Below are positions 1,797 through 64,000 of a stretch of 64,000 bases of DNA, piece by piece (the first letter of the stretch is position 1; every line of letters begins with the position of its first letter). The position numbers were made by a program. Source of the DNA: Octopus sinensis (Eukaryota); contig NC_043001.1 in NCBI RefSeq assembly GCF_006345805.1, positions 29,512,001 through 29,576,000 on the forward strand, written 5' to 3'.

Positions 1797-4700
1797 GGAA
1801 AGACTATGGAAAAAGTTGCAAGATGCAATGAAAATTTTAGGAAAATAAAAAGATGAAATAAGTGGAAATTTTACTGGTGAGTGTGTTAAATAATAAGGCA
1901 CTAAAAGAGAATGACTCTCCCCAGACACAACAGTATAAAGGGAAAGTTTATGAAAATAAACATAAGACGAAAGCAGGTAGTGTACAAACAAACAGATGTA
2001 TTAGTATAGCACTCAGGAATAGAAGAAGTCTTTTACATTTCGAGCCTACGCTCTTCTACAAAAAGATACACAGAAAAAAACAAGGAGAGAAAAAAAATGT
2101 GTGTAGTAGCTAATGATCTATCATGGCGTCTAATATATATATATACTAATATATATATATTTATATATATATATATATATCTTTGTAAGTTTAGCTGAGT
2201 TAGAGGTTAAAATAAACGTTTAAGGGATAGAAGTATCCATTACACTACCACTATATTACCTATATTTAACCATGGGCATACATATGCAAACATATTATGT
2301 TCATAAGTTATAGGTAAAGACAAGGATAAACATGGGCTTATCACGAATCAAAATTTAAAGAAAACACAAAATGGAGAAGTACTGATGAACAACAATTGAC
2401 TTACATCAATTATCATTCATTTATTCAATACAAATAGAATGCATCCCATCTAACAGCTGTTTCTGTATGGTATTGCCATTGATATGCACAAATACATAAA
2501 ATATTAATCATATTTTGTAATAAAACTGATCTGAAACAAGGAGCTTCATCAGAGTGAAGAATAAATAAAGAAGAAGAGTATAGAGAGGAAAAAGGGAAAG
2601 GTTGAGTATGGTTGTAATCATACCATTTTGCTTGTTCATCTCTTAATATTTATTCCATAATATGGATCTTTTTGGTTTGAATGGCAGTTTTTTTCTAGTG
2701 GTGTCATATGAAATTGTCACCCATAATTATGACCCTAGAATCGATCTATTGCATTTCAATCTCTTTTAGGATTAGGGTTAGGGGTGGGGGGAAGGGTATC
2801 TTTTTTTCTTCACAAATGTAAATAAACCCAATCAGTTTCTTAAATGAGGGACATATTCATATGGCACAGAATGTTTTTTTTTACCTCAATAGATGCCATT
2901 GATTGGTTGAAATTGCAGAAATTGAAGAAAAAAACCAACAAATATCTTACAAACTATAGAATTTTCTCAATAAAGCCAAGAGAAAAAGATGTTTTATAAA
3001 CACATTCTACCAGTATACGAAGTTTAAAATTTTTTAGTTACCTAGAAATTATGTTAAAAACCTGCCGTTCAAACCAAAAAGATCCCATAATATTATTTTT
3101 TTAAATCTAATGTTTAATATCCGAAGCGTTTTAGGGCCCCTAACAAAACACACCATCTTCCTATTCATTTATTTATTTATCTTACCTTGTATAACGGTCT
3201 CAATAGCTGGTCTTTAGTTTTTAAATTTCAACTGACCATTTACATCAAACGCTGGACCTTGGCCTATCTCACTTCGGACAACAGGTGGAAAGGCTTAACC
3301 ACCTACTTGCAAATCAAATTGCATTTAACCAAATAGCACTTTATTATGAGTAATACTATTAATTAGTGCTACAAACAACTATTATAAATTATTATGATTA
3401 ATATAAAACCTTACTGTATCAAAACCCCTTCCCTGACTAAAACCTATTGCTCTATCCCACTATATTTTTTAAAATTTTTTTTTATTTATCCATCCTATCC
3501 CCCCACCCCTGTACAAAGGATTAACCCACCAATTGCTATTTTGGTTTAGTCTTTTACTTAATGGCCCAAAGAGACACAAGCAAAATGGTATGATTGCAAC
3601 CATATTCAACTTTTCCCTTTTTTCTCTCTATGCTCTTCCTCTTTATTTATTTTTCACTTTGATGAAGCTCCTTGTTTCAGATCGGTTTTATTACGAAATA
3701 TGATTAATATTTTACATATTTGTGCATATCAATGGCAACACTGGAAGCAGAAACAGCTGTTAGATGGGAGGCAGTCTATTTGCCTTGAATTAATTAATAA
3801 TAATTGATGTAAGTCAATTGTTGTTCATCAGTACTTCTCCGTTTTCTATTTTCTTATCTTATATATATATATACACACACAAGTACACATATGCACATAA
3901 TGCATACATGCACACACACATATACATATACACACATGCCTTCTTTTATGCAAATTTTAACAGCTATTTTTCCATACCTGGATATTTGGATGGTTCTACT
4001 ATTGTTATCAAATAGCTATATAAAACAAATAAATATAAAGAATAGTAATATTTTGTTTTGTGTGTGTGTTAAACAAAAACAACTTACGGTAAATGTAGTT
4101 AGAAACATATTTGGTTTCTTCAAGGTATCAGTAAGTGAAACTACGCCTGTCAATTTGTCTATTTGAAAGAATGACAAAGCTGGATATTTTCCAGTTAGTT
4201 TATAGTGTATGGATTTACCCTGCAAAAAGATAAAATAATACAAAAATACAGAGGGAAAGGTTAAATTTAGTGAATGCAAAAATATTTCTGATGACACAAC
4301 ATTACTTATTAAGTAAAAATTATTCTGTAGTTTTAAGAATAAACTATGTTTTATGTTAAAGAGCATGAGAAATATGAAGGACTTAAATCATTCACATAAC
4401 ATGATTGAAGACCCGACAAATGAAGAGAGTTCATGGCTCACAGCATGGCCTGCTGTGCTAGCCTTGGATCATAGAGTGACCCACTGTTCTTGAGGAGACC
4501 TATTGAGTCAAGTACGTCAACACCAACATCAAAATGAAAATCAAATGGAAATTGTAATTAAGAGACCCATGCTGGTGACACGTAAAAAGCACTGTCTGAA
4601 CGGAGCAGATGCCAGCACTGCTTGACTGGCATCTATGTCGGTGACACGTAAAAGCACCAACTGATCATGGCTGTTTGCAAGCCTCCTCTGACCCCTGTGC

Positions 4701-61134: not shown

Positions 61135-64000
61135 GCGACAGGCTTCTTTCAGTTTCCATCTACCAAATCCACTCACAAGGCTTTGGTCGGCCCGAAGCTA
61201 TAGTAGAAGACACTTGCCCAAGGTGCCACACAGTGGGACTGAACCCGGAACCATGTGGTTGGTAAGCAAGCTCTGGTTTGTAAATATTTCTTTGCTTTGT
61301 TCATTTCATAGTCATTCTAACATTCTAAACAATGAATCTGTCATCCTAACATTCTAAACAATGAATCTGTCATTCTAACATTCTAAGCAATGAATCTGAC
61401 ATTCTAACATTCTTAGCAATGAATCTGTCATTCTAACATTCTAAGCAATGAATCTGACATTCTAACATTCTAAACAATGAATCTGTCATTCTAACATTCT
61501 AAACAATGAATCTGACATTCTAACATTCTAAACAATGAATCTGACATTCTAACATTCTAAACAATGAATCTGTCATTCTAACATTCTAAGCAATGAATCT
61601 GACATTCTAACATTCTAAACAATGAATCTGTCATTCTAACATTCTAAGCAATGAATCTGTCATTTTAAATGGGCATATAATTATTTATATATTTAACCCT
61701 TTAGCATTCTGATTATTCTGTCAAATGTAATGCTTATATATTCATATTGTTTTGAATTAATCAAGCTTGTAGCTTTAAGATTTCTATGATGTTGATTCTA
61801 TAGTTTTAGAATTATATTCTGTGATAGGTGTCAGAGGCCAGATCTGGCGAGTTTGAGCATAAAACAGGTGGAATATTTGAGCCAGATATGGTCAGTTTAA
61901 ATGCTAAAGGGTTAAAAGATAGAAATTAATAGAAATAACCTGAGATGCTTAAAGACATAAGAAAAAAGAGAGGGAGAAATAGTAGAGGAAAATAGAGAAA
62001 GAAAGTGTAATTAACACTAGAGACTTTCCTCTACCTAGATAAGTAATTTTCAAATGCTTAAATTCAATAAGCATGCCTATAAATAATTGAGTCTGCCTTT
62101 ACATATTTACGTGTTGCAAAATATCCACTGGCCTATGGCAACAATCCTGTCTAACAAACTGTGCTTGAAAACATTTTGTCTAGATATATTATTTTCCAAT
62201 GGATTCCATAGAAAATCAGTATTTCTTTTTCATCTTCTTCTTCTTCTTCCTATGCCTCATCATCATCAACGAAGAAGATGAAGAAGACGAAGAAGAAGAC
62301 GAAGAAGACGAAAAAGAAGAAGAAGGAGGAGGAGGAGGAGGAGGAGAAGAAGAAGAAGGAGGAGGAGGAGGGGTAAGAGAAGGAGGAGAAGAAGAAGAAG
62401 AAGGAGAAGGAGGAGGAGGAGGAGAAGAAGAAGAAGAAGAAGACAAAGAAGAAGAAGAAGAAGAAGAAGAAGAAGAAGAAGAAGAAGAAGAAGAAGAAGA
62501 CGACAACTCAACACATGAAGCAGCAGTTTAATAATTTATCAAACTCGACAATTTAATTTCAACAATCAAATGTTTAGATTATTCTAATGATAACAATAAC
62601 GACTTGTTGATTATAGCATTCTATCATAAATATTGAGACTGAGATTAAATAATTAAATAAGAACTATTTACCTTGAATGTGTCTTCAACTGACGATGAAA
62701 GAGAATTCTTTATTGATACATCTCCTGTAGTGGGGGATATTGTAAAATACACAGCAGCTAATCCATCACCAGTAATTGCATAGGTGATTGTTCGAAAAGG
62801 TAACTTGAAAAAAAGAAAAACAATTGTATAAATAGAATTGTATGTTTACAAATGAAAGTAAAGAGCAATCAAAATGAGGTACAAAGTCTATATTTATTGA
62901 AAATCAGTTGATGATTCCCTACAGTGCTAACAGAGTTTTATGTATGTTATATGTGTGAGACTGTCTTTCCACACATCACCCTGAGATGTACTTGGACACA
63001 CCATTAGTGATGTTTTGGATCTTTCAACATCAGACACCTCCACCAAAGTGACTCAGAACTGTCACTAGCTATCCTTAAATCCTTAGAAATGTTTTAGTAT
63101 TGAAGTGCCTTCAGGTCCTGTGTATGCAGGCTGAGGTGCATTTGTAAGCTAATAGTGCAGTGCTTGAAATTTTCCAGCATTAAACTGCATATTGCTTTGT
63201 TCAGCCCACATGTATATTGCTCTTAGATCCCACTAAAAGCTTGTAATATTGTCAGGGTTCTTTATGGGCTGTGATAATTTCATCATCAGTGGTGCCCCAG
63301 CATGGCCGTGGCCTTTGGGCTAAAACATTTCTAAGGATTTAAGGATAGCTAATGACAGTTCTGAGTCACTTTGGTGGAGGTGTCTGATGTTGAAAGATCC
63401 AAAACATCACTAATGGTGTGTCCAAGTACATCTCAGGGTGATGTGTGGATACATACATAGGACAGACTTCTAGGAGAAGACACTTGCCCAAGGTGCCACA
63501 CAGTGGGACTGAACATTGAACCATGTGATTGGGAACCAAGCTTCTTAGCACACAGCCATGCCCGCACCTATATATATATATATATGGCCGTTTGCCAGCT
63601 CTGTCTGGCAACCGTGTCGGTGGCACGTAAAAGCACCATCCGTTCGCGTCCGTTGCCAGCCTCAGCTGGCCCCCGTGCCGGTGACACGTAAAAGCACCAT
63701 CCGTTCGTGGCCGTTTGCCAGCTCTGTCTGGCCCCGTGTCAGTGGCACGTAAAAGCACCATCCGTCCGTGTCCGTTGCCAGCCTCGGCTGGCCCCCGTGC
63801 CGGTGACACGTAAAAGCACCGTCCGCTCGTGGCCGTTTGCCAGCTCTGTCTGGCAACCGTGTCAGTGGCATGTAAAAGCACCATCCGTTCGCGTCCGTTG
63901 CCAGCCTTGGCTGGCCCCCGTGCCGGTGACACGTAAAAGCACCGTCCGTTCGTGGCCGGTTGCCAGCTCTGTCTGGCCCCGTGTCGGTGGCACGTAAAAG

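What the first reader, a model, noticed from the sequence alone, without database searches (positions are those of the whole stretch)
4088..62803. Giant cadherin built entirely from phase 0-0 half-domain exons
Seen: all 29 exons have lengths divisible by 3 and all 28 introns are phase 0; short (38-49 aa) and long (58-64 aa) exons strictly alternate, so each about 103-aa repeat uses two exons. Established: clustered protocadherins, the known expanded family in octopus, typically encode their ectodomain in one large exon, so this is a different architecture. Inference: any exon or exon pair can be skipped or duplicated without frameshift, giving a substrate for combinatorial ectodomain-length isoforms and domain accordion evolution. 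No isoform evidence is visible in the DNA.
Basis: partly seen in the sequence, partly recalled or inferred. Interest (0 to 1): 0.7.

Follow-up and report, generated by a model that had tools for sequence, protein, structure and literature searches.

The report
Multi-exon cadherin gene, all phase-0 introns
The window holds a real stretch of a very large cadherin adhesion gene in which each repeat is split into a short and a long in-frame exon, a tidy but probably inherited layout and not evidence of combinatorial splicing.

Summary
The minus strand carries 29 open exons at 62803-4088. Fifteen are short (38-49 aa) and 14 long (58-64 aa), in strict alternation. All have AG/GT sites and all 28 introns are phase 0. 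A profile of the long exons matches solved cadherins (CELSR1 E=2.7e-67), and the short-exon profile matches cadherin-13.

The exons are offset from the domains. The long exon spans strands F-G, the linker and strands A-B of the next repeat. The short exon holds the middle of a repeat.

The 28 phase-0 introns reduce to two ancestral positions copied by tandem duplication. Exon identities are only 12-42%, so the array is old. Long exons show a two-repeat periodicity (p=0.001). The only recent intragenic copy is a decaying exon-24 fragment in intron 22. Nothing in the DNA points to regulated exon skipping.

The protein itself is more unusual. No linker has a canonical DXNDN (fourth Asp 0 of 14), and the linker is one residue shorter than in CELSR1.

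Orthologues could not be searched. A 77-domain octopus cadherin is already published.

The parts
62672..62803 (-). exon 1, short type, 44 aa
   Evidence: Short-exon profile E=3.7e-20. Sites caag| and |gtaaat, phase 0.
60643..60816 (-). exon 2, long type, 58 aa
   Evidence: Long-exon profile E=3.3e-20. Sites ttag| and |gtaagt. Lacks DXD.
58661..58789 (-). exon 3, short type, 43 aa
   Evidence: E=5.8e-13. Sites acag| and |gtaagt.
57899..58078 (-). exon 4, long type, 60 aa
   Evidence: E=2.9e-24. Sites gcag| and |gtaagt.
55502..55648 (-). exon 5, short type, 49 aa (48 with the alternative donor at 55505)
   Evidence: E=1.9e-16. Sites tcag| and |gttagt. Both candidate donors are phase 0.
52912..53097 (-). 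exon 6, long type, 62 aa
   Evidence: E=1.3e-26. The ORF around it matches Pfam Cadherin at E=5.1e-08. Sites tcag| and |gtaaga.
49365..49493 (-). exon 7, short type, 43 aa
   Evidence: E=3.5e-19. Sites acag| and |gtaagt.
48298..48474 (-). exon 8, long type, 59 aa
   Evidence: E=1.8e-28. Sites tcag| and |gtaagt. Lacks DXD.
45288..45416 (-). exon 9, short type, 43 aa
   Evidence: E=7.9e-15. Sites ttag| and |gtaaga.
42846..43019 (-). exon 10, long type, 58 aa
   Evidence: E=4.3e-23. Sites tcag| and |gtaagt.
41415..41549 (-). exon 11, short type, 45 aa
   Evidence: E=1.5e-15. Sites acag| and |gtaaga.
39870..40058 (-). exon 12, long type, 63 aa
   Evidence: E=6.4e-28. Sites tcag| and |gtgagt.
37711..37836 (-). 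exon 13, short type, 42 aa
   Evidence: E=8.2e-16. Sites acag| and |gtaagt.
36851..37033 (-). exon 14, long type, 61 aa
   Evidence: E=4e-26. Sites ccag| and |gtaagt.
36150..36263 (-). exon 15, short type, 38 aa
   Evidence: E=1.8e-09, the weakest of the 29. Sites ttag| and |gtgagt.
32841..33023 (-). exon 16, long type, 61 aa
   Evidence: E=1.2e-24. Sites tcag| and |gtaagt.
31298..31423 (-). exon 17, short type, 42 aa
   Evidence: E=4e-17. Sites gcag| and |gtaagt.
27258..27437 (-). exon 18, long type, 60 aa
   Evidence: E=1.3e-19. Sites tcag| and |gtacga. The only linker with Asp at the first DXNDN position.
24475..24594 (-). exon 19, short type, 40 aa (39 with the alternative donor at 24478)
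   Evidence: E=1.9e-16. Sites tcag| and |gtgagt. Both candidate donors are phase 0.
21321..21497 (-). exon 20, long type, 59 aa
   Evidence: E=1.9e-20. Sites acag| and |gtaaga. Lacks DXD.
19714..19836 (-). exon 21, short type, 41 aa
   Evidence: E=2.5e-22. Sites tcag| and |gtaagc.
17654..17836 (-). exon 22, long type, 61 aa
   Evidence: E=1.5e-28. Sites acag| and |gtaagt. Used as the Atlas query.
17395..17484 (-). decaying partial copy of the 3' 90 nt of exon 24, lying in intron 22 (the duplicated block is 17200-17500)
   Evidence: blastn 12488-12788 against 17200-17500: 82% over 301 bp, aligned. Identity is 75 of 90 nt. The 14 differing codons are all nonsynonymous.
14674..14805 (-). exon 23, short type, 44 aa
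   Evidence: E=9.4e-18. Sites tcag| and |gtaagt. One of two short exons with Asp at the first position of the DRE-type motif.
12683..12865 (-). exon 24, long type, 61 aa
   Evidence: E=3e-26. Sites tcag| and |gtaatt.
11688..11813 (-). exon 25, short type, 42 aa
   Evidence: E=3.3e-19. Sites gcag| and |gtaaga.
10317..10499 (-). exon 26, long type, 61 aa
   Evidence: E=3.6e-28. Sites tcag| and |gtaatg.
8737..8865 (-). exon 27, short type, 43 aa
   Evidence: E=7.8e-21. Sites gcag| and |gtaagt.
5991..6182 (-). exon 28, long type, 64 aa (63 or 59 with the alternative donors at 5994 or 6006)
   Evidence: E=6e-24. Sites caag| and |gtgagc. All three candidate donors are phase 0. Lacks DXD.
4088..4219 (-). 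exon 29, short type, 44 aa
   Evidence: E=2.8e-18. Sites gcag| and |gtaagt.

Best explanation
Window 62803-4088 (minus strand) is an internal segment of a large non-classical cadherin gene and encodes about 14.5 tandem extracellular cadherin (EC) repeats.

Each repeat period is carried by two exons that are out of register with the domains. The long exon encodes the end of one repeat (strands F-G), the inter-repeat linker and the start of the next repeat (strands A-B, up to the DXD motif). The short exon encodes the middle strands C-E.

The two intron positions, both phase 0, were present in the ancestral repeat unit. They were copied when the array grew by in-frame tandem duplication, probably in units of two repeats (four exons), and have been kept since. 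So the uniform phase is inherited, not 28 separate events. It is also the condition that let such duplications keep the reading frame.

The exons are most likely spliced constitutively.

The encoded repeats keep the DXD and XDX-top ligands but have lost most of DXNDN and the DRE-type motif. I infer that each linker binds fewer than three calcium ions, perhaps only at site 3, and that the ectodomain is a more flexible filament than a canonical cadherin rod.
For: Shown:
- 29 open exons with AG/GT sites, all phase 0, short and long alternating.
- P(open by chance) = 1.7e-39.
- All hits are on the minus strand, none on the plus strand, and none in 5 shuffles.
- The long-exon profile matches CELSR1 at E=2.7e-67 with 8 matched stretches, and also protocadherins, CDH23 and PCDH15.
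- The short-exon profile matches cadherin-13 at E=2.5e-07.
- Pfam Cadherin registers: long-exon ORFs match model positions 67-93 and then 1-26 or 5-47; short-exon ORFs match positions 25-69.
- All 14 long exons start in the same alignment column, 6 codons before the XDX-top position (Asp in 12 of 14).
- Identity among long exons is 12-42% and among short exons 12-41%.
- Long exons an even number of repeats apart are 4.6 points more alike (permutation p=0.001). The effect appears in both halves of the exon and is strongest in exons 10-28, 32.5% against 24.3%.
- Motif counts: DXNDN first Asp 1 of 14, Asn3 8 of 14, fourth Asp 0 of 14, Asn5 6 of 14. DXD 10 of 14. XDX-top Asp 12 of 14. XEX Glu 7 of 14. 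DRE-type Asp 2 of 15.

Inferred: the strand assignment (recalled cadherin topology combined with the Pfam positions), the calcium-site reading, and constitutive splicing.
Against: - There is no transcript evidence, so the exon set and its constitutive use are not shown.
- Short exons show no two-repeat periodicity (p=0.22). This weakens the four-exon duplication unit, and functional alternation of linker types could mimic it.
- Single exons match Pfam Cadherin only weakly: 4 of 14 long and 1 of 15 short at E<=0.01.
- No signal peptide, membrane span or tail lies in the window, so the gene's size and class are unknown.
- No orthologue could be examined, so 'inherited and kept' rests on within-gene comparison only.
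- Five donors depart from GTRAG and two acceptors are AAG. Such sites could be regulated.
Confidence: 0.8

Rival explanations
1. One reading: the phase-0 symmetric exons are used for regulated skipping of exons or exon pairs, giving many ectodomain-length isoforms, and the repeat number changes readily in evolution.
For: Every exon is a multiple of 3, so any skip keeps the frame. A pair skip would restore a full-length chimeric repeat, which I infer from the registers. A few splice sites are weaker: donors of exons 1, 5, 18, 24 and 26, and AAG acceptors of exons 1 and 28. One intragenic duplication has occurred.
Against: No isoform data exist here. GTRAG donors occur in 24 of 29 exons and YAG acceptors in 27 of 29. 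There are no duplicated alternative exons apart from one fragment, which is decaying (0 synonymous and 14 nonsynonymous codon changes). No repeat pair exceeds 42% identity, so the window shows no recent gain of repeats. Skipping a single exon would remove strands from the middle of a fold (inference).
Confidence: 0.12
2. This segment belongs to the octopus cadherin with 77 EC domains that is already in print. If so, the gene is known and only its exon layout is undescribed.
For: PMC6339937 (passages) reports, citing Wang and Ragsdale 2017, an O. bimaculoides cadherin with 77 EC domains that is highly expressed in suckers. The window holds at least 14.5 repeats with both ends open. GC content is 35.9%, which fits my recollection of octopus genomes. 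The nearest Atlas clusters are eukaryotic, with Annelida and Mollusca among the few members that have a recorded phylum (a lead only).
Against: The source organism is not given and could not be tested. The original paper is not held. No eukaryotic sequence collection was open. Other many-repeat cadherins (Fat, Dachsous, CDH23-like) would look the same in a 64-kb window.
Confidence: 0.35
3. The array is a dead or dying gene remnant, and the open frames are left over.
For: The calcium-binding motifs are degenerate, and a pseudo-exon fragment lies in intron 22.
Against: All 29 exons are open, against 0.058 stops per intronic codon (P=1.7e-39). All 58 splice dinucleotides are intact. Structural positions are kept: Gly 15 of 15 in short exons, and Phe 13 of 14 and Pro 12 of 14 in long exons. 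In contrast, the true relic shows only nonsynonymous change.
Confidence: 0.02

Closest known systems
Octopus bimaculoides cadherin with 77 EC domains (Wang and Ragsdale 2017, seen only as cited in PMC6339937)
   Same: A very long tandem EC array in a non-protocadherin cadherin. This is possibly the same gene.
   Different: Identity is untested. In the papers I could search, I found no description of its exon layout, intron phases or linker motifs. The paper itself is not held.
CDH23 and PCDH15 (tip-link cadherins)
   Same: Many EC repeats are matched by the long-exon profile. The exon numbers mentioned (CDH23 exons 21, 46 and 60; PCDH15 exon 27) show many-exon genes (PMC3581446 passages), and some exons are in frame. 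Some linkers are non-canonical or calcium-free (PMC5120219 passages).
   Different: In human CDH23, skipping exon 21 shifts the frame while skipping exon 46 does not, so its exons are not uniformly symmetric. Non-canonical linkers there are the exception. Here none of 14 linkers is canonical.
Type III classical cadherin genes of spiders (PMC5473995)
   Same: A complex, ancestral exon-intron organisation with 34 introns in the coding region and intron positions conserved across bilaterians (passages). This shows that small exons within EC arrays are an old cadherin feature.
   Different: The passages seen give no phases and report no strict two-exon periodicity. Those genes have classical cytoplasmic domains, which are not visible here.
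Clustered protocadherins (vertebrate and octopus)
   Same: Same superfamily, and strong profile matches.
   Different: Their whole ectodomain is encoded in one large exon (PMC7811963 and PMC10084454 passages). Here there are 29 exons for about 14.5 repeats.
CELSR1 (solved structures 8vy2, 7sz8, 8d40)
   Same: Best profile match, E=2.7e-67 with 8 matched stretches. The best-scoring stretch is a CELSR1 repeat junction whose linker also departs from DXNDN.
   Different: In all 7 printed stretches of the top hit that cover the linker, CELSR1 has one more residue in the linker than the window's repeats. CELSR genes are reported to have large multi-repeat exons (PMC10084454 passage). The many matched stretches reflect repeat number, not orthology.

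Membership tests
Cadherin superfamily | Tandem repeats of about 100-110 aa with cadherin (EC) sequence signature | tested here: met
   The long-exon profile matches 179 distinct PDB sequences at E<=1; all of the 60 best that were listed are cadherins, the best at 2.7e-67. The short-exon profile matches cadherin-13 at 2.5e-07. Pfam PF00028 is the only family hit by the exact exons. The repeat period is about 103 aa.
Cadherin superfamily | Canonical calcium-binding motifs XEX, DRE/DYE, DXNDN, DXD and XDX-top (as listed in PMC5120219) | tested here: inconclusive
   DXD 10 of 14 and XDX-top Asp 12 of 14 are kept. XEX Glu is present in 7 of 14. DXNDN first Asp 1 of 14 and fourth Asp 0 of 14. DRE-type Asp 2 of 15. 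The set is partly kept, and non-canonical linkers are known within the family.
Cadherin superfamily | Signal peptide, membrane span and cytoplasmic tail that define the subfamily | not testable with these tools
   Neither gene end lies in the window. Exon 1 has an acceptor and exon 29 a donor, and no further exon of either type lies in the flanks.
Clustered protocadherins | The whole ectodomain (six EC repeats) encoded by one large exon | tested here: not met
   29 exons of 114-192 nt encode about 14.5 repeats. The literature definition is from passages seen.
Fat / Dachsous / CDH23 / Flamingo orthology groups | Orthology shown by a tree and by non-EC domains | not testable with these tools
77-EC octopus cadherin (Wang and Ragsdale 2017) | Same locus in an octopus genome, 77 EC repeats, expression in suckers | not testable with these tools
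   Known to me only through a citation. The paper is not held and the source organism of the window is unknown.

The most novel reading that the evidence does not exclude
This is a lineage-specific giant cadherin built from a distinct EC subtype. Its linkers are one residue shorter than usual, carry Arg or Lys where DXNDN has its second residue, and keep ligands for only one calcium site. The result would be a long, compliant filament. The array grew by duplication of two-repeat (four-exon) units, and its fully symmetric phase-0 exons are used for regulated exon-pair skipping that tunes filament length between tissues.
Probability: 0.08. Interest if true: 0.6.

Novelty: new member of a known kind. 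Interest (0 to 1): 0.3.

Why it matters
As a gene-structure fact this is modest. It shows a cadherin array that kept two ancestral phase-0 introns in every repeat, while clustered protocadherins in the same superfamily lost theirs. It also gives a clean example of how symmetric exons permit in-frame growth of a repeat array.

The more useful lead concerns the protein. There are fourteen consecutive linkers without a canonical DXNDN, yet DXD and XDX-top are kept. This predicts a cadherin filament with unusual calcium dependence and mechanics, and it can be tested with two-repeat fragments.

If the gene is the sucker-enriched 77-domain cadherin, this bears on how a cephalopod-specific organ uses adhesion proteins.

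Tried and rejected
- A six-frame regex for the DxNDNxP linker motif found no match, which at first suggested the gene was not a cadherin. I rejected that idea after the profile searches. The motif really is degenerate.
- All-against-all blastp of ORFs was dominated by interspersed DNA repeats that match in several frames and on both strands. Only the single-frame minus-strand clusters were useful.
- Scans for tRNA genes and Rfam families found nothing.
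- Pfam scans of 20 intronic or flanking ORFs gave two matches. One was a low-complexity match (New_glue) inside a GAA-type microsatellite. The other was a Mos1-type HTH fragment.
- A lenient profile search found no extra exon in the flanks or the long introns.
- Literature searches for cadherin with intron phase or phase 0, for the 77-EC cadherin, and for symmetric exons in CDH23/PCDH15 found no description of this layout. That absence covers only the held library.
- Wang and Ragsdale 2017, Albertin 2015, and Wu and Maniatis 2000 are not held.
- One Atlas query with exon 22 gave nearest clusters of exon-length eukaryotic fragments. The top score was 0.95, and one cluster carried Pfam Cadherin on 12% of members. 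I treat this as a lead only.
- I made no structure prediction, fold search or complex prediction, because a foldable repeat would need two exons joined. The spliced model was never assembled or searched; every search was exon by exon or on alignments of separate exons.
I did not use genome contigs because it holds only bacteria and archaea.

Full report
**Observation.** The window is 64,000 bases with no N and 35.9% G+C. A six-frame regex for cadherin motifs gave almost nothing. An all-against-all comparison of ORFs did show clusters that matched in a single frame, only on the minus strand.

Profiles built from those ORFs found 14 long-type exons plus one partial copy and 15 short-type exons. 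A profile from 4 seeds already found 14 of the short ones. All hits lie on the minus strand. In a lenient search every hit above E=1e-8 was listed and the best of them had E=0.46, and five shuffled windows gave no hit.

I listed every AG and GT around each core and chose the sites. This gives 29 exons from 62803 down to 4088. Every length is a multiple of three. YAG acceptors occur in 27 of 29 exons and GTRAG donors in 24 of 29. All 28 introns are phase 0 and range from 582 to 3860 bp. Short exons are 38-49 aa and long exons 58-64 aa, in strict alternation, about 103 aa per pair.

Exons 5, 19 and 28 have nearby alternative donors, all phase 0. With 0.058 stops per intronic codon, 1491 open codons have P=1.7e-39 by chance.

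**Identity.** Single exons match Pfam Cadherin only weakly: 4 of 14 long and 1 of 15 short at E<=0.01. A profile of the 14 long exons (alignment A1) matches 179 distinct PDB sequences, and all of the 60 best that were listed are cadherins. The best is CELSR1 at E=2.7e-67 with 8 matched stretches, followed by protocadherins, PCDH15, CDH23 and Fat4. The short-exon profile (A2) matches cadherin-13 at 2.5e-07.

Pfam coordinates place the long exon on model positions 67-93 and then 1-26 of the next repeat, and the short exon on about 25-69. So the exons are not half-domains in register. Using the recalled seven-strand topology (also stated in PMC5120219), I assign the long exon to strands F-G, the linker and strands A-B, and the short exon to strands C-E.

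All searches were made exon by exon or on alignments of separate exons. The joined, spliced model was left out, and so were structure and complex prediction.

**What the phase-0 pattern means.** All 14 long exons begin in the same alignment column, six codons before the XDX-top position. In the 10 long exons that have a DXD motif, the exon ends one or two codons after it, read from the alignment. Thirteen of 15 short exons end one codon after a conserved aromatic residue, read from the alignment.

So the 28 introns are copies of two ancestral positions. The chance argument applies to two events, not 28. Phase 0 is the commonest intron phase in general (PMC8001218 passage), so two phase-0 introns are unremarkable. 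For the unit to duplicate in frame, the phases at its ends need only match.

Identities among repeats are low: 12-42% for long exons and 12-41% for short exons. The array is therefore old.

Long exons an even number of repeats apart are more alike, by 4.6 points (permutation p=0.001). This holds in both halves of the exon and is strongest for exons 10-28, 32.5% against 24.3%. It suggests growth in two-repeat units. Short exons do not show it (p=0.22), so this remains tentative.

**Signs of recent change or alternative exons.** Self-blastn gave 676 hits covering 20.8 kb of interspersed repeats, but only one touches an exon. Region 12488-12788 matches 17200-17500 at 82% over 301 bp. The copied block is the last 106 nt of exon 24, the start of intron 24, and a tRNA-like SINE head. 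The copy lies in intron 22.

Its exon-like 90 nt (17484-17395) are open and flanked by AG and GT. However, all 14 differing codons are nonsynonymous and identity (75 of 90) is no higher than in the intronic part. Its inclusion would put two repeat-starts in a row. I read it as a decaying relic. No other spare exon exists. The DNA therefore gives no support for mutually exclusive or cassette use, and none against constitutive splicing.

**The protein.** The motif set is the one given in PMC5120219.

| Motif position | Kept |
|---|---|
| XDX-top Asp | 12 of 14 |
| DXD, both Asp | 10 of 14 |
| XEX Glu | 7 of 14, plus 3 Asp |
| DXNDN first Asp | 1 of 14 |
| DXNDN Asn3 | 8 of 14 |
| DXNDN fourth Asp | 0 of 14 |
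| DXNDN Asn5 | 6 of 14 |
| DRE-type Asp | 2 of 15 |
| DRE-type Glu position acidic | 6 of 15 |

The residue before Asn3 is Arg or Lys in 10 of 14 linkers. In all 7 printed stretches of the top CELSR1 hit that cover the linker, CELSR1 carries one extra linker residue.

From my recollection of which ligands serve which site, sites 1 and 2 are probably lost and site 3 may remain. Calcium-free or partial linkers are known to bend or soften cadherins. A filament with such linkers throughout would therefore be unusually compliant. This is inference.

**Comparison with what is known.**
- Small exons within EC arrays are not new. Spider type III classical cadherins have 34 coding introns, held to be ancestral.
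- Human CDH23 and PCDH15 are many-exon genes, but CDH23 is not uniformly symmetric: skipping exon 21 shifts the frame and skipping exon 46 does not.
- An octopus cadherin with 77 EC domains, enriched in suckers, is in print (citing a paper I could not read). This window may be part of it.
- I found no paper in the held library describing a strictly periodic phase-0 two-exon layout.

**Verdict.** This is a real, well-formed segment of a large cadherin gene. The layout is regular and worth a line in an annotation. Its uniform phase is best explained by inheritance through duplication, and the isoform and accordion ideas are untested. I rate it a new member of a known kind, interest 0.3. The degenerate linkers are the more promising lead.

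Noticed in passing
window 17200-17500 (exon-like part 17395-17484, minus strand): A partial copy of the 3' end of exon 24, with the start of intron 24 and a SINE head, sits in intron 22. It is 82% identical over 301 bp and has an open frame, but all 14 codon changes are nonsynonymous.
   Followed up: yes
window 12626-12648 (-), 17338-17360 (-), 48714-48736 (+): There are three copies of a tRNA-like SINE head (0-1 mismatch to a 23-base motif; 0 expected in shuffles). ARAGORN and Rfam do not call them.
   Followed up: partly
alignment A1, long exons 10-28 (window 43019-5991): Long exons alternate between two subtypes. Exons an even number of repeats apart are 32.5% identical against 24.3% for odd separations (p=0.004). 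Short exons show no such pattern.
   Followed up: yes
linker columns 24-30 of alignment A1 (all 14 long exons): The linker is one residue shorter than in the aligned CELSR1 repeats. It has Arg or Lys in 10 of 14 at the position before the conserved Asn.
   Followed up: partly
window 50183-50998 and 62271-62500: Long GAA/GAG-type microsatellites lie in introns 6 and 1. The first creates stop-free frames on both strands and a spurious Pfam New_glue match.
   Followed up: yes
window 31754-32001, 37949-38117, 46620-46746, 6964-7049, 63585-64000: An interspersed element carries 61-66-bp internal tandem repeats with a shared core. It occurs in several introns and at the window's end.
   Followed up: no
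window 25052-25384 (+), intron 18: An ORF matches the HTH domain of the Mos1 (mariner) transposase (E=9e-06). It is probably a transposon relic.
   Followed up: no
window 61311-61668, intron 1: A 29-bp minisatellite with 12.3 copies and 94% matches.
   Followed up: no
exon 22 (window 17654-17836, minus strand), Atlas query: The nearest Atlas clusters are exon-length (62-77 aa) eukaryotic fragments with 69-127 members. Annelida and Mollusca are among the few members with a recorded phylum. This hints that this exon type is widespread in lophotrochozoans.
   Followed up: no
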